From positions 1 through 64,000 of the forward strand of contig JALAGF010002905.1 of the NCBI GenBank assembly GCA_030167865.1: a DNA stretch of 64,000 nt. The letters run 5' to 3'. Shown here piece after piece: positions 144 to 53,884 of the stretch. Made by a program: the position numbers and the translations under genes. The DNA is from Craspedostauros australis. Its lineage: Eukaryota. Below the pieces are notes generated by a model, which did not search any database, was not told the origin of the DNA, and was given only the letters and a program-made list of their open reading frames with translations. The number at the start of each line of letters is the position of its first letter. Position 1 is the first letter of the stretch.

Positions 144-169
144 NNNNNNNNNNNNNNNNNNNNNNNNNN
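144..169. other. Assembly gap (26 N)
   Basis: Run of N characters in the sequence. Confidence 0.99.
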
Positions 170-36471: not shown

Positions 36472-37046
36472 AATCGGTGCGCTGTTGTGCCATGAGGCCA
36501 CGATGTCACAATGTCACGATGCCATTCAGAACGAAACCAAGACGAATCAAGCTGAATGGGAACATGCAGAGTTACTGAGCATTCCAAGAGCTGTTCATAC
36601 GAATCTAGAGTATTTCAGTTGCCGTGCTCAACATGGAATACATTTTAGAATGTATTGGTGCATGGACTCAGATGACATCGATCTGTGGTGATATTCAACG
36701 ACCAGGAGCGTGCGTTCAACAAGCCACTATTCTGTGCACTCCACACCTCGATCGTTTGTCAACCATGTTTCGAAAGGGTTCGATGTCTGGGCGTGTTTCG
36801 GAGCCATTCGTGACTCGTTGACCTCCAACCACAAGAAAATGAGGAACGAACATTGCGCTGCCATCGTCGCCTTTTTCGACATCTTTCTTACAGAATACGC
36901 GTGCCGATAGGCCACCACACGTTTCATACCCTGAGAGGTTGGGGAGCATAACACATTAGTCACATACTGTCACATACTATCACATCCACCCACTCACGCA
37001 CGCGCTCACGCACGCACTCACGCATATCGACAGAAGGCAAGAGAGA

Positions 37047-38963: not shown

Positions 38964-39056
38964 CACGGAGCATGGAACATGGAACATTAAGCATATACTC
39001 GTCGCAAACATGCGAGTATTGACTGCAGTATAGTATATTGCAATGGCGACTTCTCA

Positions 39057-39094
39057 CTCTCTCTCTCTCTCTCCAGAGAGAGAGAGAGAGAGAG
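39057..39094. repeat. Abutting (CT)n and (AG)n microsatellites forming an inverted repeat
   Basis: A 17-nt CT run at 39057-39073 and a 20-nt AG run at 39075-39094. Confidence 0.9.
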
Positions 39095-39293
39095 CAATGC
39101 CAAATACGAATCCGTCACTAAATGCTCGCACCAAAGAGAGAGAGAGGAAGTATGAGTACGAGTGGAGTATTTGTGTGTAACTTAGCAGTACTACTCATAA
39201 TTAAGTTTGTGAGATGGCGAGTTGAGTATACAGAGCAGTACGTAGAGGATGTGGATTGGTCCATTCCATTCCTCTCTCCGAGTATTCTACTCT

Positions 39294-41222
39294 CTAGAAA
39301 CCATCGTCGAAGTCATCATCGAACATGCCACCCGGCGCTCCCTCCCTCTGCTGCTTCTCGACCATGGCCCGAAGGATGGCCGCCTGCATGGGATTCAGCA
39401 CGGTGCCCATGCCCTCCTTCCCGTCCAGGACGCCAACGTGAACGGCACAGCCAAGGGCGACGGCCTCGTCAGGGTCGACGGTCCTCTGCGGCACCACGCC
39501 GGTCAAGGCAGCGATCAATCGAGAAATGACAGGCATCCGAGATGCCCCACCCACGAGCACGACCCTCGAGATGGGACGTCCCGAGATGCCATCCTCACGG
39601 ACCTTCACATCGGACTTTGCAACACTTGCGGCTCTCTGTGCCTCCGCTCGGTACTGCCGTTCCTGCTTCGATACGTTGCGGGCCTTCTTGCGTCCCTTCT
39701 GCTGCGCCTTCTTGATGGCCTTCATCTGGTCCGTCTGTTCCAGCAAGGCAAGCGCCTCCGCGTCCTCGCCCTCGCTCGTTGCAGCGATCATCTCTTCCTC
39801 CTCCTCGCGCATCGCCTCTTCCATCTCCATCGCAGATTCCACCAGGGACGGACGTGTATCGCCCGGCAACAAGGCACCAGCCATGATGGCGACCTGTCGG
39901 ATCGGTGTCAGCAAGCCCTGCAGCTCATCGGCGCACAGCAGCTCCATCTGACGACGCGTCAATCGGTGATGCACGTGCGTGGCGTTCTTGTATTCGGGAT
40001 CGAACTTGGCATCCTCCACGATGATGGTGTTGCTATCCATAGCGGTGCTCCATCCTTCTTCCGTGCGGGGCAGGGCCAGATTGGCAGCGCGGTTGTTGGA
40101 AAGGTAAATGCGAATGTGTTCCGCCGCAGCCGACAGGATACCCATCGTCGTGCCGGATGTGGTCGGCGTGCGCGATGTGGTCTTGAGGAACTGGTAGATT
40201 TTGGCGTCGAAATTGACGCCCCCCAATTGTGAATCACCGGCGGTGCAAACAACTTCGGTGAGACCTTCGCCGACGAGCAGCATGCTGACATCGTAGGTTC
40301 CGCCGCCGAGATCAAAGACTAGCACCAGCTCTTCTTCGTCGAGATCCTTGTCGACACCGTATGCCAGCGCTGCAGCTTCGGGCTCACGCAACAGTTTGAC
40401 CTTGTCGATGCCGGCCATGTTGGCCGCTTGCGTGGTGGCTTCGCGCTGGGCATCGTTGAAGTAGGCCGGGACGCCGATCACGGCACGCGTGATTTCCATG
40501 TTGGTACTTTGCTTCGCCACGTCCAGGAGCTTGATCAGGATTTGGGACGAGATGGCGATTGGCGAAACGGTGTTGTCACCATCTTCATCTTCATCATCAT
40601 CATCATTGCCGCCCATGATCGATCGCAGCATGATGGGGTTGTTGCGCCCATCGTCCAGCTGCTTTTGAAGGGACGGCGCCTTCTTATGCTTCGAGGATTT
40701 CTTCTTCTTCCTGGTATCCTCAATGAGCAGATGAGGAACGACCTTCATGAGCTCGGGTGACAGATACTGACTGCCCATGCCGATGACGCGCTTGACGTGA
40801 TGGTACCCAATCTTCCCCGACTGCTGCTCGGCTTCCACCGCGTCGTTGCCCACGAGGATCTGAGCACCGCCACCGCCCGATGCGTCGCCCTTCGCGAAGG
40901 TGACGATGGATTTCATTGTGCGACCGTTGTTGGGGACATCGATGATCGTCGGGACATCATCATCCTTCAAGAATGCAATGGCGGAGTTGGTCGTTCCCAG
41001 GTCGATGCCCACGCCGATCTCCTTGCTTGCCATCCAACGTGATGTCGGATGATGCGAACGCGGATACGACTGTGCATGGTTGCCATGTTCGTTCCGCGTG
41101 ATCAGGCTTGGGGCGTTCCTGTCGATGACGAAGCCATCTATCCTGGTGACTGCAGAATAAGAATGCAAGGCCAGCAAGGCGACGACAATCCTCTTGCTTG
41201 TTGACATCTTGGTTGTTTGCAT
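39294..41222 (-). CDS. Hsp70/DnaK-like protein, nucleotide-binding domain only, with probable bipartite plastid presequence (alternative ATG at 41207)
   Basis: GIDLGTTNS, VPAYFNDAQREAT, EPEAAALAYG, VFDLGGGTYDVS, LGGVNFD, LVGGASRMP and VDPDEAVALG. The ORF stops about 50 aa after the last motif. Confidence 0.88.
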   Translation of the reverse strand: MQTTKMSTSKRIVVALLALHSYSAVTRIDGFVIDRNAPSLITRNEHGNHAQSYPRSHHPTSRWMASKEIGVGIDLGTTNSAIAFLKDDDVPTIIDVPNNGRTMKSIVTFAKGDASGGGGAQILVGNDAVEAEQQSGKIGYHHVKRVIGMGSQYLSPELMKVVPHLLIEDTRKKKKSSKHKKAPSLQKQLDDGRNNPIMLRSIMGGNDDDDEDEDGDNTVSPIAISSQILIKLLDVAKQSTNMEITRAVIGVPAYFNDAQREATTQAANMAGIDKVKLLREPEAAALAYGVDKDLDEEELVLVFDLGGGTYDVSMLLVGEGLTEVVCTAGDSQLGGVNFDAKIYQFLKTTSRTPTTSGTTMGILSAAAEHIRIYLSNNRAANLALPRTEEGWSTAMDSNTIIVEDAKFDPEYKNATHVHHRLTRRQMELLCADELQGLLTPIRQVAIMAGALLPGDTRPSLVESAMEMEEAMREEEEEMIAATSEGEDAEALALLEQTDQMKAIKKAQQKGRKKARNVSKQERQYRAEAQRAASVAKSDVKVREDGISGRPISRVVLVGGASRMPVISRLIAALTGVVPQRTVDPDEAVALGCAVHVGVLDGKEGMGTVLNPMQAAILRAMVEKQQREGAPGGMFDDDFDDGF

Positions 41223-42139
41223 CGCTTTGTGACGATGGATGATGGATGATGCACAATGGATGATGGATGATGGGCGACAGATGCCAAAGAAGGAAGCATC
41301 AGCTCATTTTTTGGTTGGTTGGCGTCTCCGTTGATTCGGATCACGCACGAGTCCCGCAACCCCATTTTCGCCAGATTATCGTTGCTCTAACTTTGTTTTT
41401 AATAGCCTTATCTCGACGATTCGCTCGCCACCCCAGACGACATGTAACCAAGATGGCGGCACTATCATCATCATCATCATCATCGAATAGAGATCAGTAA
41501 CTTCTTGAGCTCTGTCTTCATCCATGGCTTGCATGTCTATACTCGTTTAGGTCCAACATCAAGATTGGTTGGGAACAGAATCGAGCCTCCTCACGATGGT
41601 GGATGCAACTCGCAACTTCCATCCATTGTGCCCCTGCAATCCCATGACCAAATGACATGCGGACATGATGAGCACCCTCCATGTCACCATCACTCACCAA
41701 TGTGAAGCGGAATGATCTTCATGTTTGTTCTATCACAGGATACTAGTGTACAGTTAGAGTATGATACCGCGTGGTGGATGGATCACGAATGTGTCCGACG
41801 TGTGTCTCTGCGCGGCAGCATTCGCACGGATAGCAGAGGATCAGCACCACAGAATATATTCCCCGAAACGTTCGCTGTCCATCGCTCGACGTATGCTGTC
41901 GTACGAGCTGCTAGAAGCACTCCATACGAATGGCTCGTATACGTAGAGTACTGTCTGCGGCAGTCGTTGTTGGCGGTCGAAACATGATGATGTCCCGAAC
42001 TTCGCAGTGCGGTGCGTTGGGTCGCACCGCATGGCGTTTGTCTTTTTTCCCTTGCTCCTGACCAAGTCAGCTTGCTTTGCATGAAAAGTCTTTGAAGTAT
42101 GTATGGTGGTGTATTCGAGGGTGAGGTCTCTCGCCCACT

Positions 42140-43075
42140 CTACGAATCAAAGCCGTGATCGAAGCGCGTGTCGTGCAGGTACTGCTTGACGTCAAAGCTT
42201 TTCGTCTTGTTGCCACCCACAAGCATCCACGGCGCTGCTTGATCGAGGGAGACGAGGTCACCGAATTCCTGCTTCTTCTGGCGTTCCGAGTTGACGAACT
42301 GCACCTTCTTCCTCGTCTCCGTGCCGATGAAGGGCTTGAGGAGGGACCAGAAGAAGAGGAAGGACGTGGGCGTGTTGAGGAGGTATACTCTCTTGACGCG
42401 ACCCGGGTAGTTCTGTCGCAGCTTCTCCATGAATTCGTTGCTGAGCGACATGGGGGCGGCGTGATGTGACTTGAAACCGGTGTAGTTGCCGATGACGGTG
42501 ATCTGCTGCTCCCTGCCCTTGCTCTGTCGTTCCGTCGCGGCGATGGCGCGTTCGAAGTTGTAGAGACTCTCCTTGATGAACCACTCCTGATCGAAGTCCT
42601 TCGTTCTGGCGGCGTAGATGGTGTAGATGGCACGACCGCACTTGTCGTGGCCCATGACGAAGACGCGACCAGAATCCATCCGTGACTCGAGCTTTTCTCT
42701 GTACGTGGCGTAGCGGGCGGCTGTGTCGGCATCGAGGTTGAGGTCCTTGGCATGGAAGCAGAGCCTGAGACCGTCCACATCCGTCTCCTTGCGGAATTTG
42801 ATGGCGTTGCGGTACTTGCCCATGGCCACGTCGTACTGACCCTTCTTGGATTCCAGATGTCTCATGGCCATGGCCTTCGCGTGCTTGAGCTGCTCCTCCT
42901 TGAGGTTGTCGGCATCTCCGGTCACGGACTTCCACAGGTAGTCGAAGGATGACCGGGCGGCGCATTCGCGTTCCTCCTCCGTCAGGTCCTCCACCATGCG
43001 CGTCGTCAGCGCCGCGAGGTCCGATTCGGAAACATGCCTCGATGAGGATGAGAAGAAGCTGATTCCTCCTGTCAT
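42140..43075 (-). CDS. CRAL-TRIO/Sec14-like lipid-binding protein (about 311 aa)
   Basis: GHDKCGRAI, LRQNYPGRVKRVYLLNTP..FWSLLKPFI..ETRKKVQFV. Start at MTGGISFF; the longer ORF extension looks like 5' UTR. Confidence 0.9.
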   Translation of the reverse strand: MTGGISFFSSSSRHVSESDLAALTTRMVEDLTEEERECAARSSFDYLWKSVTGDADNLKEEQLKHAKAMAMRHLESKKGQYDVAMGKYRNAIKFRKETDVDGLRLCFHAKDLNLDADTAARYATYREKLESRMDSGRVFVMGHDKCGRAIYTIYAARTKDFDQEWFIKESLYNFERAIAATERQSKGREQQITVIGNYTGFKSHHAAPMSLSNEFMEKLRQNYPGRVKRVYLLNTPTSFLFFWSLLKPFIGTETRKKVQFVNSERQKKQEFGDLVSLDQAAPWMLVGGNKTKSFDVKQYLHDTRFDHGFDS

Positions 43076-46000
43076 TGTCTGTACTGGCGTTTGCGTTTGC
43101 CTTTGCGATTGCCTTTGCGTTCGTGAAAATGTGAGTGCGCTTGTCTTAGATGCACCTGAGTGGATTCTGTGAGATGCAATGGATTGGTTGGTTCGTCGCT
43201 TCAGATGGGTCGACAATGTCCTCGTGTTCGTGCTCTTGCGTTTGGCAAGAAGATGCTGGATGCTTGTGCTTATTGGTATGCTTGCGCTTGGAATGGATGG
43301 TGTTGGTGTTGGTGTTGATGTTAATGCTGGAGTACTTGCATGTGTTGCGGGATTGTAAAATGTGATCAGTGGTGCGATCGTGACACGCGCGATGTGAACG
43401 AAGAGGAAAACGGGGATGGTGGTTGCAGAAGAGAAACAGGAATGTGTCCACTCTCTCCGGCGTGGGTGAGTGAGTTGGTGTGTGTCTCTTGGAGGAGGTG
43501 TTGGTGTCGGCCTTTCGGTTCTGGAAACCAATCGCAGGGAAGGAGAAAAGGAAGAGAGAAAATCGATGTGCGTCCACGTGCGCATTCGTGTGGGTTGGAA
43601 TGACCTTGTTAGCGTGCAACAGAGTGGAACGTGCGGAAGAAGCAGGTACAAAGTGCACGATGGGCAAGAGAAGAAGACTCGTTTTGTCACTCCATCGCGT
43701 GTTTTCGCTCCACTTGGTGCTGACGGGTGTCGGTTTTCATCCGTTTGTTCGGAACTCAGGCGGCCACCCGTTATTTCCGCTCTTGCGCAAACAGAGAGTC
43801 GTTATCGTTAACGTTCGACTAACATCCAATTCAGTTGTTCGCGTACTTCCGGACGGGCAGCACATCCGCATCTGTGCGATTCGTCTCGATTGTTTTTTGC
43901 AATTTTTGTTCCGAAACGATCCGAGAAGTTAACCTTGCCTCCGGATGTGGTGGGGTGAACGCAACTATGACATGTGTGGAATAATCACGAAACGTCCTTT
44001 GTGCCGACCGGCGCCAGTCCGTACGACATCTCGCCGGGTGTTCGATGCGGTCAAGCCGGACAAAATAGTTTGGAAATAGTTTTTCCGAAACGATCACGAA
44101 GCGCCTTTTTTCCTCACAAAATCAGACGTGGATGTATCCGCAAACAAAACCACGAACAGGGCTCTTCACGAAACAAGGACAACAAGGAGGACATCAACGA
44201 CCACAACCCCACCAACACCGACAGGGAGAAAGCAAACCATTCCTCCATCAAACTTCTCCCATCGACTTGGATGGTTGGCATCATGCCACATGCCATACAC
44301 AGCTCGTGCTCCAGAACGATCACGAGAAGGATCGGAGACTGCAACGATAGAGTAGAGTGCTCGCACATTCATGCATTCATCCATCCATTCTGTTCTGTAT
44401 CTCTGGAGTAATTGGAAAGTCGCGCAGAGTACAGGACACTTGGCTATCTCCGACATCACGCCGATGTCGGTGGAAAGGCGAAAAGAGAAGCAAGGCACAG
44501 AGCCTGGTTGGATCACTCTGCTCAAATAGTAGTAGCTCGTACGAGGACGCGCAAACCATGCCCGGATCGTGTCATTGCAACCACAAGACACGATTGCACA
44601 AGTTGTTCCCATTCTCGTCTTGACCTTGTGGTGCGGAACAATCCATTCGCACACATCCTGGGCCTCCTGTGGTCAACTTGCCAACCTCATGTGAACAGGT
44701 TTGATAATTGCAGACAGAACGGTGCAAGCGGTTGCAATGTGAACAGTATTGTGTTGGGTCGCAGAATTTAGGTTGTACACAAGTATCCACTTGCGCTCAC
44801 AGACGACACCAAGCCTTGGGAACAATCGACTACGCCGTGAATGATTCGAATGGTCACGATCCTCGTCGCAAGAGTCATGGGACGTATGAGTATAACAGGA
44901 GGAGCAGAGTATGGCAAGGCGAAGCGAGGCACTCGCAATGCGAAGGGAGTACTCAGGCTACGCACGGTATGGTACGCATGTTGTACCATGTTGCACCAAG
45001 GTGGTGGATGATTGATTGCGGGCTCCCGACGTAGGAATCGCAAGTCCGCATGGGATGCAACTGTTGCTTTTTGTCGTTTTCCCAATTTGTTCGCAGCAGA
45101 CCTCGCTTTTGTCACGGAGAGGTGGCTGCATGCGAATCCTGTGCAATTACATGGATTATATAATAACATGCCTTGGCAAAGTATTGCGGTCGTTGTGCAG
45201 ATGACGGTACGCTTTGGGGCAAATGATAGTGTGCTCCATGAAAGTCATGGCGTCGTCACGGAACCTGGATGAGAATCCCATGTTCAAGACTGCAGAGCAC
45301 ATGATAGTCTCTGCCCATGTAGTTGCATTGATGATGGTAATGCGTTGCCGTCGGAGCACGTTGAACGGTGTGCAGAGGAAGAACTTGGACTGTTCACACT
45401 GACACGAGAGCTGTCATCGACCAACGCCGTCTCCACAGCAGACTTGAAGCAGACCGTCCGTCGGAATGATGGCTGTGATGATGACGATACGATTCTGTGG
45501 CAGATGTGCCCATGGTGAAGATGCGAACGATGGATGGCATGCTCACTTGAGGTTGCAGGATGCTGTCTTGGCCTCTGGATTTCTGCAATGAAGACGATCT
45601 TGCGGCGTGGAGGAGTGCAACATAGTCGTACCCGTGGGTACCAACACCAACGTCAACCTCAAGCCTGGCTGCGGCCCAAACAACGGTAACGGCAACAAGG
45701 AGAGGAAGAAGAACAAGAACTGATTCCCAATCGTTGACAGGCTGTTGATGAAGATGATGAACGAAACCGTGAGATCCAATCTCCTCTCTTGGATTCAATC
45801 ATCGGTTCAACCGCAACTGTTGAACATGGATGTTTTGCTTGTGCGATGAAGATGAACATCGAGAGGAACGAATGATTGGATGTCAAAGTTCAGGAGTTTC
45901 CGCCAGTTCATTCCACAATCACCAGTCCCGTTTGAAGTTCATTGGGGGCTGGGTCACGGTTGAACCGAATCTTGAACGTGGCACATGTCTCTTGATGCCC

Positions 46001-46255
46001 TTTTTCCTTTCCGTCGTGCGTACTACCGCAACAGTTTCAGTTGCTCTCTGTCTGTCGTTCCCAACCAGCCAAAGAGAAAGAGACACGACGTTGCGAGATG
46101 GATGTCAACAATCTCCACCAAAGCGTGTGTGTCCTTGCGTGTACCTTGTACCACTTTGGTATTGACGAGTTACCGTTCTGCGAAGTCTGTCACCAATCAA
46201 TCATAAAACCAACCTGTCGATCAACTCCATCAATCAACTACTCAACACCATCAAA

Positions 46256-46879
46256 ATGAAGCTCGCCATCGCCGCCCTCCTCGCCGGTTCCGCCGCCGCA
46301 TTCGCCCCATCCCAGTCTGCCAAGACCACCTCTGCCCTCCAGGTCAGCGAGCTCGAGCTTGGTGTCACCGAGCCACTCGGTGTCTACGACCCACTTGGAT
46401 GGTTGGAGACTGAGCCAGAGTCCTTCGAGCGCCGTCGTGCCGTCGAGCGCAAGCACGGACGTGTTGCCATGGCCGCCGTCGTCGGATGCATCGTCCACAA
46501 CAACCACATCGTCTTCGACGGATACCTTTCCCCATCCGCCGGCCTCAAGTTCTCCGACATCCCAACCGGAACTGACGGAATCCGCGCCATCCCAACCGCC
46601 GGACTCGCCCAGATCTTGGCCTTCTTCGCCCTTGTTGAGCTCGCATGGATGCCAGCCTCCAAGTACGACGGAGACTACGGCGTTGGCTACTTCGGTTCCA
46701 ACATCGAGGACCCAGAGGAGAAGGCCCGCAAGCTGAACGTCGAGCTCAACAACGGACGTGCCGCCATGATGGGTATCTTCGGAAACATGGTTGCCGAGCA
46801 GCTCACTGGCCAGACCATGTACGAGCAGTACGCCGCCGGACACATCTCCCCATTCGGTGATGGCCAGGGTGTCTTCTAA
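46256..46879 (+). CDS. Light-harvesting protein, Lhcf15/red-shifted-antenna-like, copy A (207 aa, intronless)
   Basis: AAAFAP presequence, YDPLGWL, FERRRAVERKHGRVAM, ELAWMPASKYDGDYG, ELNNGRAAM and C-terminal GHISPFGDGQGVF. From memory this resembles Phaeodactylum Lhcf15. LHC identity is secure; the subfamily needs checking. Confidence 0.93.
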   Translation: MKLAIAALLAGSAAAFAPSQSAKTTSALQVSELELGVTEPLGVYDPLGWLETEPESFERRRAVERKHGRVAMAAVVGCIVHNNHIVFDGYLSPSAGLKFSDIPTGTDGIRAIPTAGLAQILAFFALVELAWMPASKYDGDYGVGYFGSNIEDPEEKARKLNVELNNGRAAMMGIFGNMVAEQLTGQTMYEQYAAGHISPFGDGQGVF

Positions 46880-47879
46880 GCAGCTGCATGCTCACGCATC
46901 ATCTGTATGTCGACAACGACATGGCCTCTGTAAATACTCAAAATAGATTCTAAACTTTTGCACGCCAACACAATTCTCATCTCCTTTCTCGCGTGATGCA
47001 TTTGTAGGATTCCAGCAGCACGTGGAGCGCTGTGTTGACAATCGTCGACTGGATGGCTTCCGGAAAACAGCAGTCAGCGTGCCTTCCAATAGTTGCGCAA
47101 TACCGAAAACAGGAGACACCAGCTGACAATCGCAGTGCGATGACATGCTCTGGGGAAGTGTGCCAAATCCAAATGCATCAACCGCCTGTCTCTGCCTTTG
47201 ACTATTCTTCAAGGAAAGAGGGAGGCGTGGTGTATGGTACCAGACGGATAGAGGATAGCCCTCTTCTGTTCATCGAAATGTTGTCCTCATGGTGGTCCCT
47301 TCCGTCGCTGCGCCTGATTCTCAACTCACTCAAGTTGAAGTTGTCAACGCAACCGACGCAACGCGCAGCACATGCTCCTTCGCATCAGTTCACCAGTGAC
47401 TGCTGATTGTCCTTCCATCTTCATCATCTGCGACGCATGCTCCGAACCGTGAAGCACGGTATGCATTGCCACAGAGTACGAGCTACGAGTACGAACATAC
47501 AGAGTAAAGCAATACAGTCAATGAGTGTTGGTGCGGTACCCTCCCTAACATTCAGGAGCATTGACTGAGCAGGTCGCCATCCAGTGGCGGAATACCTACA
47601 AGCTATTATACATACGCACTTGTGGAGACCACAGGGCAGGAAGCTGCCGTCCCGTTCTAACCAACAGCGCAGCCCTCTCCAGCCACAACATAATAACAGC
47701 ACAGCTGCAGTCAATGTGATGAACCAAACGAGGACTACTGCTCTGATAGGCTCTTTGTGTGTGTGTGTAAACTTGTGTTTTTGGTTGAAACTAGTCAAAC
47801 TTATGCTGGTATTTTATGGACATGTTTCGAGGCTGTTCTGCGTGGGTGAGGACACCGCTACAAGAGGTCAGCGACTAAT

Positions 47880-48503
47880 TTAGAAGACACCCTGGCCATC
47901 GCCGAATGGGGAGATGTGTCCAGCGGCGTACTGCTCGTACATGGTCTGGCCAGTGAGCTGCTCGGCAACCATGTTTCCGAAGATACCCATCATGGCGGCG
48001 CGTCCGTTGTTCAATTCGACATTCAGCTTGCGGGCCTTCTCTTCTGGGTCGGTGATCTCACGTCCGAACCAGCCGACGCCGTAGTCTCCGTCGTACTTGG
48101 AGGCTGGGAGCCATGCGAGCTCGATGAGAGCGATGAAGAGGAAGATCTGGGCGAGTCCAGCGGTTGGGACGGTGGCGATTCCAGCCATGCCGGTTGGGAC
48201 ATCAGAGAACTTGAGGTCGTTGGATGGGGAAAGGTATCCGTCGAAGACGATGTGGTTGTTGTGGATGATGACTCCCACAACGGCGGCCATAGCGATGCGT
48301 CCGTGCTTGCGCTCGACGGCACGACGGCGCTCGAAGGCCTCTGGCTCAGTCTCCAACCATCCAAGTGGATCGAAGACACCGAGTGGCTCAGTGACACCAA
48401 GCTCGAGCTCGCTGACCTGGAGGGCAGAGGTGGTCTTGGCAGACTGGGATGGGGCGAATGCGGCGGCGGAACCGGCGAGGAGGGCGGCGATGGCGAGCTT
48501 CAT
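47880..48503 (-). CDS. Light-harvesting protein, Lhcf15-like, copy B (207 aa), inverted paralog of copy A
   Basis: Same length and motifs as copy A; 185 of 207 residues identical by manual alignment. Confidence 0.93.
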   Translation of the reverse strand: MKLAIAALLAGSAAAFAPSQSAKTTSALQVSELELGVTEPLGVFDPLGWLETEPEAFERRRAVERKHGRIAMAAVVGVIIHNNHIVFDGYLSPSNDLKFSDVPTGMAGIATVPTAGLAQIFLFIALIELAWLPASKYDGDYGVGWFGREITDPEEKARKLNVELNNGRAAMMGIFGNMVAEQLTGQTMYEQYAAGHISPFGDGQGVF

Positions 48504-49189
48504 GGTGATCGGTATTTGGTATTGGTTGTTTGGGTGGTTGTTGGAGTTATGGTGTGATGAAGGGAAGCTCCTGTGTGTTTCTTGTTAGGCGTCTTCATCG
48601 GAAGGGGCTGGTCTCGCTTCCCACAGAGACCATGGCGGCCGACCAGGGTACACCAGAGCACGAACACACAGAGGTGTCAAGGCACAAACACACACACACA
48701 CCGAAAACAAGGTGAGGGGATCTTCACGTTTCCTCGTGGAAAGCGGAAGGATACGGTTCAACAACAGCAACAGAAAAGGACAGACGAAAGCGTTCAAGGT
48801 TGGCGCCTTCGGAGTCTGACCTTCGACCGATGCATGACGCTTCAAAGAGGGGATTTCTTTACCCCTAAAACTTATCAGGGGGCATATCTTCTTGGATGCG
48901 CAGAATCCCCCAAAATGAGAAATCAGAAAAGAACAACCAGTCGGAGTTTGCTGAATCATCGCAACTCACCTCCACCACCTTCTTCTGTGGATCGGTTTGT
49001 CATGCCGCCATCGCCATCACCATTGCCATCGGAGAGCGCAGTCATCATTGTCGTACCTCGTTGTTCGCGTTGGTCTCACGGGTGCTATCGTTCTGTCATA
49101 ATTCAGCATCGACTGTTGTGTCGCACAAGAGGCTTTCTGTACCCGCACGCTGGCGCTCGTTACCGAGAGCAGCACCAATTGAACACATC

Positions 49190-50509
49190 ATGAGTCAAGC
49201 AAGAACCCTCTTTCACAGAGTCGTGGACGGCTTCATCTTGAAGCCAAAGACGTTCACGCAGACGGCGTGGTCTGCTGCGTTGGGGTTGGGTTCCCTGTTC
49301 GATGAGAAGAGCAGGAAGTCCTTCAAGCACTATCTGGATGAGGGCGTGATCAACGCGGACGTGATATCGCAGGCCACCACAGGACCCATCATGATGCTGT
49401 CCCTCCTGCACGAGCTCAACAGCCCGCTCTTCAAGAAGTACGATGTAGATCCCAAGCAGTTCCTGGAGGGCGTGGCGCCAGCACTGGAGAACTTCCACAA
49501 CACTTCGGGCGCGTTGGAGAACCAGCTGTGGCGCACGCATCAGATGAATCTTGTCGGGGCTACCGAGACGAAGGACAATCAAAGTGCGGCTGCCAAAGCG
49601 GACGCCACAGTTGATGGCAAAGACGACAGTGGGGAGGAGACGAAAAAGGAGACAAAGGATGCCAATGGCATCGATGCCGCAAAGAGCCAAGGTGAGGGAG
49701 GACCAGAAAAAGAGCTGTTGGAATTCATGACATCGTCGGATTTCTTTTCTTCGAAATCCAAAATGTCGAAGAACGAAGCTGAATTGGTGCTGAATCACAA
49801 CTGGTCGAATGAGGCCCAAAGTGACCCTGACTCGCTCGCTGGTCAGCTCTCCAGGATGACCACCAAGCAGCTGTTCCAACTGCACGAGCTTTCCGCCAAG
49901 ACCACCTTCCTGCTCCAAAATCACACCGGGACGTACGAATTCAAGGAGGGCAGCTGCAACATCGACAACGTCGCACTGCTAAGCGCGAGAGCATGCCGCG
50001 AGGTCGAACACAAAGACGCTATTGATGAAGCCAACTCATTCAAGCATTTCGAACCCATCGATTTCAGCATCGACGCCAGCGACATGAAGGACGACGAAAG
50101 GGTCGCTGCGCAGTTCGAGGTCCTCTACAGTCTGACGCAGTCTTTCTTCAAAAAGAAGAGACCGAATGAGCTGAAAATGGATATCAACGATGCCACGAAC
50201 CTTGTTCGTGCGAGTAATGGTGCAGATGCAGAGAGCGAAGCCAATGAAAAGAAAGACGAGAAAGGCTCGACGATATCTTCATCGTCGACGTCGTCGTCGT
50301 CATCAGCCTCACCATCGTCAAAATCAAAAAGCTCATCAAGCGGAGATGATGGCGACGACAGCGTGGAGAAATCTCTTCTCACGACCACAAGCGTCAGCGT
50401 TGTGACGATTGAAGGATTTCTCAACGGAGGACCTGAAGATGAGCCAGGGTGGCGAATGGTGATGACTAGACCAGCACACGAGTTCCCTGACATACGTGCG
50501 TCAATGTGA
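49190..50509 (+). CDS. Hypothetical protein, weakly Tim44/MAIP1-like; start uncertain (upstream in-frame ATG at 48896)
   Basis: Long ORF with coding-like codon use. YDVDPKQFLEGV..A near the N-terminus and a C-terminal VTIEG..WRMV recall Tim44-like folds. The family call is weak. Confidence 0.6.
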   Translation: MSQARTLFHRVVDGFILKPKTFTQTAWSAALGLGSLFDEKSRKSFKHYLDEGVINADVISQATTGPIMMLSLLHELNSPLFKKYDVDPKQFLEGVAPALENFHNTSGALENQLWRTHQMNLVGATETKDNQSAAAKADATVDGKDDSGEETKKETKDANGIDAAKSQGEGGPEKELLEFMTSSDFFSSKSKMSKNEAELVLNHNWSNEAQSDPDSLAGQLSRMTTKQLFQLHELSAKTTFLLQNHTGTYEFKEGSCNIDNVALLSARACREVEHKDAIDEANSFKHFEPIDFSIDASDMKDDERVAAQFEVLYSLTQSFFKKKRPNELKMDINDATNLVRASNGADAESEANEKKDEKGSTISSSSTSSSSSASPSSKSKSSSSGDDGDDSVEKSLLTTTSVSVVTIEGFLNGGPEDEPGWRMVMTRPAHEFPDIRASM

Positions 50510-51107
50510 TGATGATGCTATTGCTGCGAATGATACAAACGATGCAAGGTAGTTCCGCATTGACTCCGAGAGGTCGGAGAAAGACGCCGTCCTGTCGGAA
50601 ACACGGCCCAGACGGAACTCTCCTACCAGAGGAGATACTGTGGTGAGCCAACAAAAGATTAAAAACAATCCACAGAGCAATGGCCACCATTCCTTGTCTA
50701 TGAGTGCTTATCCCAGCATCCATGTGTTTATTGTACTCTTCCTCCATGGTCTATCCAGTAGATACGTTGTCATCACTTCGCTGCGATTCGTTGTTGATGA
50801 TGGAGCAACGATTCCACGTGGAAGTGAGACTTTCCGTGTCCATGTCGAAGGTCGTCGGTCGTCCGTATCTGCGATTCTCACCTTGTCGTTTTCGTTTTCC
50901 TTCGATGAGGATCCATTGCATTCCATGGCTTCGCCTGTCTCCTGTGACGACCACCAGCCACCCACACAATCGAACTTCCATCCATCCATCGATGCACAAC
51001 TTGGCAACACCATCAGAGCCGAGAGTATTGCAAAGGCAGGAATCTTTCGCACTTGTGACGATCCACATCACATCATCAACAGCAAGCGTCCAACAGAGGT
51101 CGCAATC

Positions 51108-51572
51108 ATGGAACCCCAAGCGCTCCCAAAGCCATCGCAACAAGATGGCGACAGCGGCGTCAGCCATGCCCCACAGACGCAAGGACAGCTGAATGCGTTG
51201 CTACTGGAGGCCGAGTACCTCCAGCTTGTGTCTTCGATCCGGGCTTTGTTTCAGAGCAATCAATTCCTCGAGGAGGAACTGCGCAAGGATCCAAACGATG
51301 CGGACTACCTGCAAGCCGTGCGTGAGAACGTCATCGCCATGCAAAAGAAGCGCTTTCGGTTGGTGCAGATCGTCACGGATGTACGACGGCAGGGCACGAG
51401 CAGCGTATTGGATATACCGCAGGATATACAGGCAATGAACATCGACGCATGGGTGAAGAATTCGGTTGGGATGGCGACTGTGGAGGAGGATCGAGAAGAG
51501 CAAGTAGACGCGACGCAGCAAAATGAAGCAAAGGAAGCTGACGGGGCCAGTGATGCTGGGGTGTATTTGTAG
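51108..51572 (+). CDS. Small coiled-coil protein, possibly Tma17/Adc17-like (about 154 aa)
   Basis: LVSSIRALFQSNQFLEE..DPNDADYLQAVRENVIAM resembles the L..SI..L..SN..L..D..AI.EN pattern I associate with fungal Tma17. Confidence 0.6.
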   Translation: MEPQALPKPSQQDGDSGVSHAPQTQGQLNALLLEAEYLQLVSSIRALFQSNQFLEEELRKDPNDADYLQAVRENVIAMQKKRFRLVQIVTDVRRQGTSSVLDIPQDIQAMNIDAWVKNSVGMATVEEDREEQVDATQQNEAKEADGASDAGVYL

Positions 51573-51964
51573 TCTGCGCTCTCTCTCTCTCTCTTCCCAA
51601 GTACAAGGACATCATCATAAAAAAGAAGCGTTGGGTACTGTGAAATATAAAACAAAGTCCTGCACCAAGGACAGTGCTCATGCTGCAGACGTAGAATAGC
51701 CACGGCGGCGACCAAAGTGGAGCACTCTATTCGGCGCTCTTCTGCTTTCAAAACGTGCTGATTGCACGATCCAAGTCAAGCCCATCGTTTCCAACTCGAC
51801 GCGATGGCCAGAGCAAAACATGGCAGAGGACAAGAGCATAAAATTTCATTAATATTGCTCTGCATACGACGAGTCGTCTGAGATCTGCTATCCTACATCG
51901 CAATGCATTGCATGTCATCTACGTTGCTCGTTTTTGGTTGGCCCAGTTTAATCCCATTCCAGCT

Positions 51965-53884
51965 TCACTTGCTGCTGCTGCTACTACTACTCTTCTGTGT
52001 ATCTTTTTCTTCTTCTCCTTCTCTTTCTCCCAAGGATATCAGGCTCAGTTCACGTTTGCGCGGCGTGATGAATCGCAGCTGCGATCGCGATTTGGCAATC
52101 AGAGGATGGCGCTTGTCACTCTTGCGGAACTTGATGTACACTTCTTCGTCGTCACGTTGGTGAGACTGTCGCAACCGCATGGGTTCTTCCGCTGGCATTT
52201 GCAACATCTTCATTTCGGCAGCTGCCTTGGCCTGGGCGGCGATTGCGGGGTTCAGGTGGAACTTCAGTCCGGCGACGGCCCATGCGGAAGAACCGAACGG
52301 ATTCGACAGTTCAGGGTCATCCACATCGGCACGCTGTTCTCCCGACGTGATGACATCCTGTTCATCATCGAGGATCTGATGTACTGTGGGGTACTTTTGC
52401 AGTATCTGCCGTGCCAAAGCAATCAACGGCACGCTCGTGCTGGCAGGCGTATGCAGGGAGACGTCCATGATGCGCTTGACGAATGCTGCCACACGCACCA
52501 TGGAGAATTCGCGGCGTTTCAAGAAAGCCGACGTCAGGCAGTCGATGACTGTGGTCGTGTTCGCCTTGCTGTTGGATTCCGTGATCAGTCGTGTGATCTG
52601 CGTGTACAGAGGCGTGATGTACTCCTTGATGTCTATGTTCAGTTCCTTGCCGGGACCCTGCAGCGTTTGGAAGGCGGTCAGGACACAGTTGAGAGACGCC
52701 TCCAATGGGAGCTTGTCGACGTCGGCCAGGAGCTGCTTGAGAATCTCCAGCAGATCCAGCACGGTGTCAATGTTGATGAGATGCGCGAACTTGGCAAGGC
52801 CCTCCAAAGCCGGTGGCAGCAGTTCCCGCTTCGAGTCGGATTCGAACGATTTCAGAATGCGAAAGTAGGTCAGCACCACCGTCTGTAAAGTCTCTGATTG
52901 GCACCGTGCCAGCATGATCTTGTCGATGCTGGCAGAACTTTCCTTCAATTCATCCTCGATTTCCGTCAGCTCCTTGTCACGCCGCCGTTTCTTCTTGTTG
53001 GCGCTGGTGGCTAGCTTGGCCGCGATGGCCTCGTCGATGTGCACCCGCAGCGGGAGCTTGGCGAATGTGCGAAGGACCGAATTGCGCAGCGATCCTTTGT
53101 ATTCACGAATCAATTTGGACACCATCCGAGAAGTTTCCAACGCGACGTCGCCCTGCGCGTCGTTCTGGAAGATGTAGGCGATGGCCTCGCAGCATGCGTC
53201 GCTGACCTGCTCACTGCGCCTGTGATTCATCTGCTTGACGACCATAGTGATGACGTTAGAACGGAAGTTGAAATGATACGCGCTCTTCGCCAGCTCGCAT
53301 GCCGAGAGGATGGCGGTGGTGGCGACCTGCGACGGCTGCTTGCCTTTCCCTTGCAACGTCTTCCACGCCTTTTCGATGAGCTGCAGGAACTGCTGGTAGT
53401 GCGTCAACAGGGCTCGTTCGTAATCCCACATCTGCTTCGTTTCCTTGGTGACCCTCGTCGCCTGCTCGGCTTCTGTCGGCGGTCGGATGCGATAGGACGG
53501 GATGATGTCCTTGAACAGCGCGAGGACTGACATGATCGCCAGGCTCGCGATGTACTCGTCGTTGCCATTCTTGTACACTCTGCCGAGATCCAGAAGCTTT
53601 TGCATTTTGGACGGCAGCCGGAGCACCTTCTCGCCTTCGTCGGACGGGATCTTCGTCCGCTCCATGGAGAACGCCTTGGTGGGATCCTTCATGATGTCCT
53701 CGCTGATCTCCGCGATCATGTCGCATTTCTCCTCCGGTGATATCGATTCGTAGGATAGCAGCGCATCTTCCAATTCGTCAGTGTTGGCATCATCGCCATC
53801 ATCGTTACTCTGCTGTTTCCCCCTTTCCTCCTGCTCTTCCTGCTGCTGCCGCCGCCCTCCTTTTCTTGGCCGTCTCTTTGCCAT
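51965..53884 (-). CDS. NOC3: Nucleolar complex protein 3 (CBF/Mak21 family)
   Basis: LFKDIIPSYRIRP, WDYERALL..YQQFL, HFNFRSN, ALEGLAKFAHLINID, RVAAFVKR and DDPELSNP. Confidence 0.92.
   Translation of the reverse strand: MAKRRPRKGGRRQQQEEQEERGKQQSNDDGDDANTDELEDALLSYESISPEEKCDMIAEISEDIMKDPTKAFSMERTKIPSDEGEKVLRLPSKMQKLLDLGRVYKNGNDEYIASLAIMSVLALFKDIIPSYRIRPPTEAEQATRVTKETKQMWDYERALLTHYQQFLQLIEKAWKTLQGKGKQPSQVATTAILSACELAKSAYHFNFRSNVITMVVKQMNHRRSEQVSDACCEAIAYIFQNDAQGDVALETSRMVSKLIREYKGSLRNSVLRTFAKLPLRVHIDEAIAAKLATSANKKKRRRDKELTEIEDELKESSASIDKIMLARCQSETLQTVVLTYFRILKSFESDSKRELLPPALEGLAKFAHLINIDTVLDLLEILKQLLADVDKLPLEASLNCVLTAFQTLQGPGKELNIDIKEYITPLYTQITRLITESNSKANTTTVIDCLTSAFLKRREFSMVRVAAFVKRIMDVSLHTPASTSVPLIALARQILQKYPTVHQILDDEQDVITSGEQRADVDDPELSNPFGSSAWAVAGLKFHLNPAIAAQAKAAAEMKMLQMPAEEPMRLRQSHQRDDEEVYIKFRKSDKRHPLIAKSRSQLRFITPRKRELSLISLGEREGEEEKDTQKSSSSSSSK

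What the first reader, a model, noticed from the sequence alone, without database searches (positions are those of the whole stretch)
46256..48503. Convergent inverted pair of Lhcf15-like antenna genes with identical ends and a divergent pigment-binding core
Seen: two intronless 624-nt ORFs face each other tail-to-tail. The first 113 nt, covering the normally fast-evolving presequence, are identical. The last ~120 nt differ at only 2 synonymous sites. All 22 amino-acid differences fall in residues 44-151, clustered in the loop after helix 1, helix 2 and the following loop (e.g. TDGIRAI vs MAGIATV, LAFFALV vs FLFIALI, YFGSNIE vs WFGREIT). Known: Phaeodactylum Lhcf15 forms a red-shifted oligomeric antenna under red-enriched light. 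Inference: the ends are homogenised by gene conversion between the inverted copies while the middle is kept different. That could give two spectrally or structurally distinct subunits, possibly a hetero-oligomeric far-red antenna.
Basis: partly seen in the sequence, partly recalled or inferred. Interest (0 to 1): 0.8.

Follow-up and report, generated by a model that had tools for sequence, protein, structure and literature searches.

The report
Paired diatom antenna genes, partly homogenised
Two neighbouring diatom light-harvesting genes of the photosystem II tetramer type (not the far-red Lhcf15 type) represent two old protein variants whose first 113 bases were recently copied from one gene to the other.

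Summary
Two intronless 624-nt ORFs lie tail-to-tail, 1000 nt apart. They have 59 base differences, none in the first 113 nt. There are 22 amino-acid differences, all at residues 44-151.

The Lhcf15/far-red reading does not hold. Both proteins align without gaps to Chaetoceros gracilis Lhcf1 (Fcpb1), the subunit of the FCP tetramers on photosystem II (E 1e-121 and 3e-116). Both carry V63xxxH67 where Lhcf15 is reported to carry GxxxN. Published trees place PtLhcf15 with CgLhcf9 in a clade apart from other Lhcf subclades.

The two cores are old types, not a recent split. Copy B's core sits in a clade with proteins named from Fragilariopsis, Pseudo-nitzschia and Craspedostauros. Forcing A and B to be sisters is rejected (AU p 0.015). 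The same tail-to-tail arrangement occurs in four metagenome contigs.

Gene conversion at the 5' end is supported: 0 of 30 synonymous sites differ, against dS 0.28 in the core (permutation P 0.003). The identical protein at the 3' end is explained by purifying selection; a 3' tract is not significant.

All seven side-chain chlorophyll ligands are kept in both copies. The differences include sites that tell apart position-specific tetramer subunits in C. gracilis. Position-specific subunits are therefore the likeliest function; this is inferred.

The parts
46256..46879 (+). Copy A: intronless CDS, 207 aa, fucoxanthin-chlorophyll a/c protein with the canonical (A-type) core of the CgLhcf1 subfamily
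   Evidence: ORF. PF00504, 111 bits. Best solved relative 6j3y_11 CgLhcf1, E 1.1e-121, residues 1-207 to 1-207. Core groups with P0001, P0013 and F. cylindrus P0019.
47880..48503 (-). Copy B: intronless CDS, 207 aa, same subfamily, with the B-type core (MAGIATV / FLFIALI / WFGREIT)
   Evidence: ORF. PF00504, 110 bits. CgLhcf1 E 3.4e-116. Core lies in a 28-row B-type clade, SH-aLRT 95, and in an 18-row set at 99/82. 183 of 184 residues identical to transcriptome protein P0135.
46256..46368 (+). Copy A arm of the identical 113-nt 5' tract: presequence plus the first mature codons. Inferred recent gene-conversion tract.
   Evidence: No difference before nt 114. 0 of 30.3 synonymous sites differ. 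Permutation P 0.0028. The deposited mature chain 7vd5_11 starts at the residue aligned to position 31.
48391..48503 (-). Copy B arm of the identical 113-nt 5' tract
   Evidence: Same calls as for the copy A arm (3, 19, 48).
46385..46708 (+). Copy A divergent core, codons 44-151: end of the N-terminal loop, helix 1, lumenal loop, helix 2 (helix C) and the stromal AC loop
   Evidence: All 22 replacements lie here. dN 0.14, dS 0.29.
48051..48374 (-). Copy B divergent core, codons 44-151
   Evidence: B-specific states are shared with B-type proteins of other diatoms.
46880..47879 (.). 1000-nt spacer holding both 3' flanks. The two halves share no homology.
   Evidence: distance between arms. (no similarity downstream of the stop codons).
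46760..46879 (+). Last 120 nt of copy A. Two synonymous differences from copy B. A possible short 3' conversion tract, not significant.
   Evidence: nt 582 and 603. dS 0.085 for codons 169-207. P 0.21.
47880..47999 (-). Last 120 nt of copy B
   Evidence: Same calls as for the last 120 nt of copy A (3, 19, 48).

Best explanation
**What the locus is (shown).** It is a conserved tail-to-tail pair of nuclear genes for plastid fucoxanthin-chlorophyll a/c proteins. Both belong to the CgLhcf1/Fcpb1 subfamily, which builds the FCP tetramers bound to photosystem II in Chaetoceros gracilis.

**The two copies are old types (shown).** Copy A carries the canonical core. Copy B carries a distinct core that is conserved in several raphid pennate genera.

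**What happened at the ends (shown / inferred).**
- In this lineage, a recent non-reciprocal transfer (gene conversion between the inverted copies) made the first 113 nt identical. This stretch covers the targeting presequence and the first mature codons. The pattern is shown; the mechanism is inferred from it.
- The identical protein at the C-terminus is mainly due to purifying selection on helix 3 and the C-terminal tail.
- The type-specific core residues are held apart by selection. dN/dS is about 0.07 within each type and 0.47 between A and B.

**Function (inferred by analogy).** Both copies keep every side-chain chlorophyll ligand. They differ on the lumenal loop, on helix C and on the stromal AC loop. 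In C. gracilis, helix C and the AC loop contain residues that decide which paralogue sits at which tetramer position. The same region holds residues that make subunit-subunit and tetramer-core contacts. A and B are therefore most likely position-specific subunits of hetero-oligomeric PSII antenna complexes, expressed from unrelated promoters. They are not a far-red antenna.
For: **Family**
- PF00504 is found in both copies.
- Both give full-length, gap-free matches to CgLhcf1, at E 1.1e-121 and 3.4e-116. Fcpb2 and Fcpb4/Lhcf7 follow.
- E64, H67, H81, Q119, E128, E163 and N166 are named as ligands in PMC8976053 section 7. All seven are present in both copies, as are R69, R168, W131, D152 and E155.

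**Old types**
- Of the 120 proteins from the first search, 63 are A-like, 22 B-like and 35 intermediate at the 22 sites, by my thresholds.
- In a 134-row tree of residues 38-151, the 28 B-type rows including copy B form one clade (SH-aLRT 95). Copy B's best identity is 95%, to P0085. Copy A's is 95%, to P0013.
- In a careful tree of 58 rows that I chose from the 134, copy B lies in an 18-row set at 99/82. Holding A and B together costs 38.1 lnL, AU p 0.0151.
- Named B-type proteins are P0114 from Fragilariopsis kerguelensis, P0158 from Pseudo-nitzschia australis, and P0135 with organism name cut to 'Craspedostau'.
- Core dN of copy B is 0.05-0.075 to B-type loci and 0.12-0.22 to A-type loci. 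Copy A shows the converse.

**Arrangement**
- Of 78 metagenome loci, 7 hold a B-type copy. Four of these (L012, L018, L020, L062) show a second copy tail-to-tail 0.5-0.7 kb downstream. L018 and L020 encode the same proteins.
- The other three B-type loci end 240-580 nt after the stop codon.

**Conversion**
- dS is 0 (0 of 30 sites) in codons 1-37, 0.28 in codons 38-151 and 0.22 in codons 152-207.
- With codon bias allowed for, 11.5 synonymous-different codons are expected in codons 1-37 and 0 are seen. Permutation P is 0.0028.
- The presequence is not constrained at base level elsewhere. The L005 pair has dS 2.45 there. Between species, dN in codons 1-37 is 0.11-0.35 over the full-length comparisons.

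**Function**
- In C. gracilis, residues 110, 122, 124-126 and 151 tell Fcpb1, Fcpb2 and Fcpb4 apart.
- K151-E155 and N148 make inter-subunit contacts, and F122 docks the S-tetramer to the PSII core.
- A and B differ at 110, 122, 124, 148, 149 and 151, and at 132 next to W131.
- The tetramer is built by helix A-to-helix C contacts.
Against: - No direct evidence exists for oligomer state, position or spectral properties in this organism. The functional step rests on analogy to a centric diatom whose own paralogues are not B-type.
- Core dS between A and B (0.28) is far below dS to same-type orthologues (0.65 or more). Either shared codon bias or older, patchy conversion inside the core is needed to explain this. 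It was not resolved. Observed synonymous-different codons were 14, against 25.8 expected at saturation.
- The type labels were defined from the same residues that drive the core tree, so 'one clade' is partly circular. The AU test and the nearest-neighbour identities are not.
- The core alignment has only 114 columns and many forks are unresolved.
- The partner of the B-type copy in L018/L020 is an intermediate type, not A-type.
- The structure model of copy B was poor (pLDDT 42). Helix limits are therefore rough.
Confidence: 0.65

Rival explanations
1. First reader's reading. The pair is Lhcf15-like and encodes two spectrally distinct subunits of a hetero-oligomeric far-red (F710-type) antenna.
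For: - The pair is real and its cores differ.
- CgLhcf1-type tetramers and pentamers show a red-broadened Qy band and a stronger ~690 nm emission component than FCP dimers and trimers (PMC11589303 passages). Mild low-energy chlorophylls are therefore a property of this subfamily.
Against: - The best solved relatives are CgLhcf1, Fcpb2 and Fcpb4, not an Lhcf15 relative.
- Passages of the Kumazawa preprint, the CgLhcf9 preprint and PMC3592843 place PtLhcf15 with CgLhcf9, PtLhcf13 and PtLhcf14, described as independent from other Lhcf subclades.
- Lhcf15 is reported to have GxxxN at the a403/a603 site, the proposed red-shift marker. Both window copies have V63xxxH67, the ordinary [I/V]xxxH form.
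- F710 is reported as an oligomer of Lhcf15 alone, not a hetero-oligomer (PMC5607283 passages).
Confidence: 0.04
2. The two proteins are interchangeable in complexes. The pair is kept for dosage or for differential regulation from two unrelated promoters, and the core differences have no structural role.
For: - The upstream and downstream flanks share nothing, so regulation can differ.
- All seven chlorophyll ligands are identical.
- Most replacements are conservative hydrophobic swaps.
Against: - B-specific states are conserved across genera under strong purifying selection. Core dN is 0.05-0.07 at dS 0.7-1.0 between copy B and B-type loci.
- Ten sites discriminate the types in more than 60% of each group.
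- Several of these sites are the ones with documented positional or contact roles in C. gracilis.
- Differential regulation and positional roles are not mutually exclusive.
Confidence: 0.2
3. A recent duplication followed by fast, positively selected divergence of the core in one copy. The ends simply have not yet diverged, and no gene conversion occurred.
For: - The ends are near-identical.
- Core dN/dS between the copies is raised, at 0.47.
Against: - A and B as sisters on the core is rejected (AU p 0.0151).
- Copy B's core is 95% identical to proteins of other organisms and 81% identical to copy A.
- Synonymous divergence is not uniform: 0 of 30 sites against 19.5 of 83.
- dN/dS stays below 1.
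- The same B-plus-partner arrangement exists in other diatoms.
Confidence: 0.03
4. The identical ends reflect purifying selection alone (on targeting signal, mRNA or protein), with no sequence exchange between the copies.
For: - For codons 152-207 this fits. dS is 0.22, near the core value, with dN 0.008.
- Across 40 aligned relatives, much of helix 3 and the tail is invariant.
Against: - It cannot explain zero synonymous change in 37 codons (P 0.0028).
- The same region has dS 1.0-2.5 between paralogues or orthologues elsewhere, and the highest dN of the gene.
Confidence: 0.05
5. An assembly artefact: two alleles or two dispersed paralogues wrongly joined as an inverted pair.
For: - The window holds one N run, but it lies at 144-169, far from the pair.
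- No long-read check was possible.
Against: - Both flanks and the 1-kb spacer are unique.
- The tail-to-tail arrangement with a B-type member recurs in four independent metagenome contigs.
- The 22 differences follow type-specific states seen in other genera, not allelic noise.
- Contigs of run X1 match both copy-specific cores without a mismatch.
Confidence: 0.02

Closest known systems
Chaetoceros gracilis Lhcf1 (Fcpb1) and its close paralogues Fcpb2 and Fcpb4/Lhcf7, the subunits of the S- and M-tetramers of PSII-FCPII (PDB 6J3Y, 7VD5/7VD6, 8WCK/8WCL)
   Same: - Same length (207 aa) and gap-free alignment.
- By my count of the alignment printed, copy A differs from CgLhcf1 at 25 of 207 residues, 13 of them in the mature part.
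- Same seven side-chain chlorophyll ligands, the Glu-Arg locks, W131, D152 and E155.
- Same principle of near-identical paralogues that differ at residues 110, 122, 124-126 and 151 and take fixed positions.
   Different: - No solved C. gracilis chain has the B-type core.
- Neither window copy has K151. Copy A has E, as Fcpb2 does, and copy B has T.
- The organism here is a raphid pennate by its nearest named relatives. No PSII-FCPII structure with this subfamily from a pennate turned up among the solved chains.
- Oligomer state here is untested.
Phaeodactylum tricornutum Lhcf15, the sole subunit of the red-shifted F710 oligomer
   Same: - Both are Lhcf-subfamily FCPs of a pennate diatom.
- Both belong to antenna that associates with PSII, according to the literature passages.
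   Different: - Lhcf15 is reported with GxxxN at the a403/a603 site. The window proteins have VxxxH.
- Lhcf15 is placed with CgLhcf9, PtLhcf13 and PtLhcf14, apart from other Lhcf subclades.
- F710 is a homo-oligomer.
- I could not obtain the Lhcf15 sequence, so no direct alignment was made.
Segmental gene conversion (concerted evolution) between duplicated LHC genes, as named in the title and abstract listing of the Symbiodinium LHC paper PMC4351107, and, from general knowledge, between inverted or tandem duplicates in many gene families
   Same: Part of the coding sequence has been homogenised between neighbouring paralogues, while selected differences persist.
   Different: - Here the tract stops within the coding sequence, between nt 113 and 114, and starts at the start codon, where homology begins.
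- The retained differences define two types older than the genera compared.
- I saw only the search listing of PMC4351107.

Membership tests
LHC superfamily (Pfam PF00504, Chloroa_b-bind) | Profile match above the curated cut-off | tested here: met
   111.1 and 110.3 bits against a cut-off of 22.3, residues 34-181.
CgLhcf1/Fcpb1-type FCPII (tetramer-forming Lhcf branch) | Full-length, gap-free similarity to the solved tetramer subunits, well above other Lhcf branches | tested here: met
   - E 1.1e-121 (A) and 3.4e-116 (B) to 6j3y_11, residues 1-207 to 1-207.
- The next branches are far weaker: Fcpb3/Lhcf6 at 1e-69 and PtLhcf4 (6a2w_A) at 4e-26.
CgLhcf1/Fcpb1-type FCPII (tetramer-forming Lhcf branch) | Side-chain chlorophyll ligands E64, H67, H81, Q119, E128, E163 and N166, and Glu-Arg pairs E64-R168 and E163-R69 | tested here: met
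   All are present in both copies. Residue list from PMC8976053 section 7 and a Kumazawa preprint passage.
CgLhcf1/Fcpb1-type FCPII (tetramer-forming Lhcf branch) | Full-length AC loop and C-terminal helix D, which PMC10599620 says are needed for tetramer assembly | tested here: met
   - There are no gaps relative to CgLhcf1 across residues 133-207.
- The requirement itself is from a literature passage.
- The helix at 188-193 comes only from a low-confidence model.
CgLhcf1/Fcpb1-type FCPII (tetramer-forming Lhcf branch) | Assembly into tetramers bound to PSII | not testable with these tools
   Needs native PAGE with mass spectrometry, or cryo-EM.
PtLhcf15 / CgLhcf9 clade (red-light-induced FCP; F710 antenna) | [A/G]xxxN motif at the Chl a403/a603 site of helix B (reported for Lhcf15 as GxxxN) | tested here: not met
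   - Both copies have V63-E-R-K-H67. Motif from PMC11522437 passages.
- Equating H67 with the a403/a603 ligand rests on the shared ExxHxR helix-B motif. This is an inference. In CgLhcf1, H67 ligates c302.
PtLhcf15 / CgLhcf9 clade (red-light-induced FCP; F710 antenna) | Phylogenetic placement with PtLhcf15, PtLhcf13, PtLhcf14 and CgLhcf9 | tested here: inconclusive
   - No Lhcf15 or CgLhcf9 sequence could be obtained, so no direct tree was built.
- Indirect evidence: the window proteins are nearest to CgLhcf1. Literature passages call the CgLhcf9/PtLhcf15 group independent from other Lhcf subclades.
PtLhcf15 / CgLhcf9 clade (red-light-induced FCP; F710 antenna) | Induction by red or low light, and 710 nm emission | not testable with these tools
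   Needs culture experiments.
Gene conversion between paralogues | Synonymous divergence differs significantly between segments of the same gene pair | tested here: met
   - 5' end: 0 of 30 synonymous sites against 19.5 of 83 in the core, P 0.0028.
- 3' end alone: P 0.21, inconclusive.
Gene conversion between paralogues | Different segments support different trees | tested here: met
   - Core: A and B are not sisters (AU p 0.0151).
- First 113 nt: A and B are identical, while same-type proteins of other organisms differ there.

The most novel reading that the evidence does not exclude
The window may show one instance of a family-wide rule in raphid pennate diatoms.

- Lhcf1-type antenna paralogues would exchange their presequence and C-terminal segments by recurrent gene conversion.
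- Three core modules would be kept in type-specific, occasionally recombined, combinations: the lumenal loop (106-112), the helix C face (121-132) and the AC loop (145-151).
- The conserved B-type, always found beside a partner gene, would then be a so far undescribed docking or position-specific subunit of pennate PSII antenna oligomers.

Supporting hints:
- Different-core proteins with transcript ids from one numbering run share identical ends (P0114/P0029, P0043/P0107).
- Mosaic module combinations occur in about 10 of 188 rows.
- P0135 is a B-type protein with the copy-A state at residue 44.
Probability: 0.3. Interest if true: 0.55.

Novelty: new member of a known kind. Interest (0 to 1): 0.35.

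Why it matters
- **A misfiling is corrected.** This is not a far-red antenna locus. It should not be used as a marker for red-light acclimation.
- **A structural hypothesis follows.** A conserved two-type gene pair of the tetramer-forming FCP branch exists in raphid pennates. Among the solved chains, this branch appears only in C. gracilis entries. The B-type differs at residues that in C. gracilis set subunit position and core docking. The concrete prediction is that B occupies a fixed site in a hetero-oligomer.
- **A clean evolutionary example.** The locus shows conversion limited by selection in a highly expressed, codon-biased gene family.
- **The degree of surprise is modest.** Paralogue specialisation in FCP tetramers and gene conversion between duplicates are both known.

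Tried and rejected
- **Whole-genome search for further copies.** No genome is held for this window. Copy number in the genome is therefore unknown.
- **Direct comparison with PtLhcf15 or CgLhcf9.** No sequence was obtainable. The figures that hold the published trees are not held either.
- **Exact look-up of both window proteins in the protein collection.** Neither is present.
- **Sequencing runs.**
  - One coded run (X1) was listed. No RNA holder is on record, and its kind is a guess.
  - Its contigs lie on both coding sequences. They match 46508-46680 (copy A, 26 of the A/B-differing sites) and 47970-48251 (copy B, 44 of them) with no other letters.
  - There is no cover on the spacer and flanks. 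That is no finding, because contigs cannot show level, strand or absence.
  - The run may be related to the source of the assembly, so I use it only as weak support that both versions exist.
- **Structure prediction of copy B with a 40-row alignment.** Mean pLDDT 42.3, pTM 0.21. This is too poor for a fold search or for residue contacts. Only the rough helix order was read from it (55-86, 106-111, 114-130, 153-184, 188-193).
- **Complex prediction.** Not sent. A pass would mostly reflect likeness to the solved C. gracilis tetramers and could not separate hetero- from homo-oligomers.
- **Donor of the 5' tract.** Presequences are not type-specific among relatives, so direction could not be inferred.
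- **Earlier findings of this scan.** Nothing for this genome or sequence.
- **Literature on gene conversion among diatom FCP genes.** The search 'gene conversion' + fucoxanthin + diatom + light-harvesting gave 5 papers. By their titles and abstract starts, none concerns diatom FCP paralogues. This is a limited library search, not proof of absence.
Full report
**1. The observation**

ORFs of 207 codons lie at 46256-46879 (+) and 47880-48503 (-), facing each other tail-to-tail. The repeat finder reports them as a 630-nt inverted repeat, 90% complementary, with 1000 nt between the arms.

A base-by-base comparison gives 59 differences. The first is at CDS nt 114. After nt 504 only nt 582 and 603 differ, and both are synonymous.

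Outside the coding sequence the copies are unrelated. Ungapped identity of the flanks is 26-50%. The best local matches in 600 nt upstream and 500 nt downstream are words of 8-12 nt with E 0.18 or worse.

**2. What the genes are**

Both products match Pfam PF00504 (111 and 110 bits against a cut-off of 22.3).

Against all solved structures, the best match of both is Chaetoceros gracilis Lhcf1 (also called Fcpb1 or FCP1; 6J3Y, 7VD5/6, 8WCK/L). E is 1.1e-121 for copy A and 3.4e-116 for copy B, aligned 1-207 to 1-207 without gaps. Its close paralogues Fcpb2 and Fcpb4/Lhcf7 follow. Other branches are far weaker: Fcpb3/Lhcf6 at 1e-69 and P. tricornutum Lhcf4 at 4e-26.

The deposited mature chain 7vd5_11 starts at the residue aligned to position 31. 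Codons 1-30 are therefore the targeting presequence. From memory, the AAAFAP stretch is the usual diatom signal-peptide cleavage motif.

Because numbering is shared with CgLhcf1, I could check the residues that Nagao et al. 2022 name (PMC8976053, sections 7 and 8 read). The seven side-chain chlorophyll ligands are E64, H67, H81, Q119, E128, E163 and N166. All are present in both copies, as are the helix-locking R69 and R168 and the contact residues W131, D152 and E155.

The neighbouring genes are ordinary nuclear genes: NOC3p/CBF, CRAL-TRIO, Hsp70-like and ZPR1. The nearest named relatives are pennate diatoms:
- F. cylindrus P0019, 89% identical to copy A.
- P0135, a protein whose organism name is cut to 'Craspedostau', identical to copy B at 183 of 184 residues.

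**3. Not Lhcf15**

I could not obtain the PtLhcf15 sequence.

First, passages of three sources place PtLhcf15 in one group with PtLhcf13, PtLhcf14 and CgLhcf9:
- The Kumazawa et al. preprint (10.1101/2021.09.06.459020; passages and sections 8 and 12 read).
- The 2026 CgLhcf9 preprint (passages).
- Nymark et al. 2013 (PMC3592843; passages).

[quoted passage not shown] CgLhcf1 is named as the tetramer subunit of PSII-FCPII. The window proteins are nearest to CgLhcf1.

Second, PMC11522437 (passages) proposes an [A/G]xxxN motif at the Chl a403/a603 site of helix B as the marker of red-shifted antennae. It states that Lhcf15 has GxxxN, whereas ordinary FCP has [I/V]xxxH. Both window copies read V63-E-R-K-H67.

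Third, F710 is reported to consist of Lhcf15 alone (PMC5607283 passages). The published model is therefore not a hetero-oligomer.

One nuance remains. CgLhcf1-type tetramers and pentamers have a red-broadened Qy band and a stronger ~690 nm emission component than FCP dimers and trimers (PMC11589303 passages). That is not a 710 nm antenna.

**4. Two old types in a conserved arrangement**

Scoring the 120 best database relatives of copy A at the 22 differing sites gave 63 A-like, 22 B-like and 35 intermediate proteins, by my thresholds. Ten sites separate the two groups in more than 60% of each: 44, 70, 96, 107, 110, 112, 121, 122, 127 and 145.

Three tree-based results bear on the age of the types.
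- A quick ML tree of residues 38-151 had 134 rows: the 2 window proteins, the 120 database proteins and 12 locus translations. All 28 B-type rows, copy B included, fell in one clade (SH-aLRT 95).
- In that tree, copy B is 95% identical to P0085 over these 114 columns and copy A is 95% identical to P0013. A and B are 81% identical to each other there (22 differences in 114).
- A careful tree of 58 rows placed copy B in an 18-row set at 99/82. I chose these rows from the 134 to fit the time limit, dropping 76.
- On that tree the AU test rejects A and B as sisters (lnL difference 38.1, p 0.0151).

The labels were defined on the same residues, so the 'one clade' count is partly circular. The AU test and the identities are not.

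Named B-type proteins come from three genera:
- Fragilariopsis kerguelensis (P0114).
- Pseudo-nitzschia australis (P0158).
- The Craspedostauros record (P0135).

These belong to Bacillariales and Mastogloiales. No solved C. gracilis chain is B-type.

At the DNA level, 7 of 78 metagenome loci carry a B-type copy. Four of them (L012, L018, L020, L062) show a second copy tail-to-tail 0.5-0.7 kb downstream. L018 and L020 encode the same proteins. The remaining three loci end 240-580 nt after the stop codon.
- The partner in L012 is A-type, 95% identical to copy A over residues 101-207.
- The partner in L018/L020 is an intermediate type.
- Many A-type loci with 4-kb flanks have no partner.

**5. 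Gene conversion: where it is and is not shown**

| Segment (codons) | Synonymous differences | dS | dN |
|---|---|---|---|
| 1-37 | 0 of 30 sites | 0 | 0 |
| 38-151 | 19.5 of 83 sites | 0.28 | 0.133 |
| 152-207 | 7 of 36 sites | 0.22 | 0.008 |
| 169-207 | 2 of 25 sites | 0.085 | 0 |

These are Nei-Gojobori estimates.

The genes are strongly codon-biased (GC3 0.74-0.77; Pro is always CCA and Phe always TTC). I therefore compared the number of synonymous-different codons with the number expected for independent draws from the pooled usage.

| Segment (codons) | Expected | Seen |
|---|---|---|
| 1-37 | 11.5 | 0 |
| 38-151 | 25.8 | 14 |
| 169-207 | 9.2 | 2 |

A usage-weighted permutation of the 21 synonymous-different codons gives three values:
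- P 0.0028 for none in codons 1-37.
- P 0.21 for two or fewer in codons 169-207.
- P 0.0002 for both together.

The presequence is not constrained at base level elsewhere. The head-to-head pair in L005 has dS 2.45 there. Between species it has the highest dN of the gene, 0.11-0.35 over the full-length comparisons.

My reading is as follows.
- The 5' 113 nt were homogenised recently. The tract starts where homology starts, at the start codon, and ends between nt 113 and 114.
- The identical C-terminal protein is what purifying selection gives. Much of helix 3 and the tail is invariant across 40 relatives.
- A short 3' tract is possible but not shown.

One thing is left open. Core dS between A and B (0.28) is well below dS to the nearest same-type orthologues (0.65-1.0, or saturated). 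It is also below dS in the partner pairs of other contigs: 0.81 in L012 and 2.4 in L018. Shared codon bias explains part of this. Old or patchy conversion, purged at the type-specific residues, is the alternative.

Within types, selection is strongly purifying. For copy B against L041 or L062, dN is 0.05-0.07 at dS 0.7-1.0. Between A and B, dN/dS is 0.47.

**6. Hints that this is recurrent**

Several pairs of proteins with different cores share their ends.
- P0114 (B-type) and P0029 (intermediate) have transcript ids from one numbering run; P0114 is named F. kerguelensis. Their presequences and C-termini are identical, down to lineage-specific residues.
- P0043 and P0107, likewise from one numbering run, share identical ends.
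They share near-identical presequences, or an unusual C-terminal residue.

Scoring three core modules in 188 rows gave 52 b-b-b and 40 a-a-a rows (the window copies included), and about 10 clear or near-clear mosaics, such as b-a-a, b-b-a and a-a-b. The sample is biased by how the searches were made.

P0135 is B-type but has Y44, the copy-A state. Either the tract reaches further in that strain or allele, or the transcript assembly is chimeric across the identical 113 nt.

**7. Likely function**

By position, the 22 replacements fall as follows. Helix limits are rough because the model had pLDDT 42.

| Region | Residues that differ |
|---|---|
| Before helix 1 | 44 |
| Helix 1 | 56, 70, 78, 80 |
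| Lumenal loop and short helix | 95, 96, 102, 106, 107, 110, 111, 112 |
| Helix C | 121, 122, 124, 127, 132 |
| Stromal AC loop | 145, 148, 149, 151 |

In the 2.5 Å C. gracilis structure, several of these positions have documented roles.
- Fcpb1, Fcpb2 and Fcpb4 are 92-93% similar and are told apart at residues 110, 122, 124-126 and 151.
- The S-tetramer holds three Fcpb1 and one Fcpb2. [quoted passage not shown]
- K151-E155 salt bridges, N148 and W131-Chl a308 link neighbouring subunits.
- F122 of Fcpb2 docks the S-tetramer on the PSII core.

The tetramer is built by helix A-to-helix C contacts and needs the long AC loop and helix D (PMC10599620 passages). Both are retained here without gaps.

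A and B differ at 110 (R/A), 122 (A/L), 124 (F/I), 132 (M/L), 148 (S/R), 149 (N/E) and 151 (E/T). I therefore think the two proteins are position-specific subunits of PSII-associated FCP oligomers. This step is inference by analogy, and I put it at about 0.5.

Differential regulation from the unrelated promoters is compatible with this reading. On its own, it is the main rival.

**8. Expression and assembly**

P0135 comes from an MMETSP record. From memory, MMETSP records are poly(A) transcriptomes, so a B-type message almost identical to copy B exists in a Craspedostauros culture.

Contigs of the one run found (X1; kind guessed, not on record) match both copy-specific cores exactly. This shows that both versions exist in another data set. 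It shows nothing about level.

Misassembly is unlikely, given the unique flanks and the recurrence of the arrangement. No long-read test was possible.

**9. Verdict**

- It is wrong on family and on spectral role.
- The locus is a new member of a known kind.
- The conserved B-type with its partner gene gives a testable structural prediction for pennate PSII antennae, and is a tidy example of conversion limited by selection.
- Interest is moderate to low (0.35).

**10. Limits**

- No genome was available for copy number.
- No Lhcf15 or CgLhcf9 sequence could be obtained.
- Supplements and figures with the published trees were not seen.
- The core alignment has only 114 columns.
- No close relative's DNA was at hand.
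- All functional statements are by analogy to C. gracilis.

Noticed in passing
window 5645-6127 (+): A third LHC-like ORF of 160 aa, 39% identical to copy A over residues 1-128, with a similar AAAFAP-type presequence. The ORF stops before a third helix, so an intron or frameshift is likely.
   Followed up: partly
P0135 versus window 47883-48503 (-): A transcriptome protein (organism name cut to 'Craspedostau') equals copy B at 183 of 184 residues. The single difference is Y44, the copy-A state. Either the converted tract is longer in that strain or allele, or the assembly is chimeric across the identical 113 nt.
   Followed up: partly
proteins P0018, P0163, P0107, P0112, P0175, P0176 and others: Mosaic combinations of the three core modules (loop 106-112, helix C 121-132, AC loop 145-151) occur in other diatoms' proteins, in about 10 of 188 rows. 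This could reflect recombination between the types, or ancestral intermediates.
   Followed up: partly
L005:168-1475 and L026:3-1510: Head-to-head pairs of the same subfamily. In L026 the two copies differ at one synonymous site over the 51 codons that both retain. In L005 they are fully diverged, with presequence dS 2.45.
   Followed up: partly
L054:891-1908: An intermediate-type copy has a partial tail-to-tail partner. The partner's last 63 codons differ at only 2 of 36 synonymous sites, so this looks like another homogenised 3' end.
   Followed up: no
window 46880 and 46883: Contigs of run X1 leave the window sequence directly after copy A's stop codon, with two different continuations. One contig on 46436-46515 carries two C-to-T differences, one of which is the copy-B state. 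Further paralogues or alleles with the same CDS end probably exist.
   Followed up: no
window 35332-53884: The neighbours are ordinary nuclear genes: adaptin-binding-like (weak), ZPR1, Hsp70-like, CRAL/TRIO and NOC3p/CBF. The 537-aa and 290-aa ORFs next to copy B have no Pfam match.
   Followed up: partly
window 144-169: A run of 26 N, the only gap in the window.
   Followed up: no
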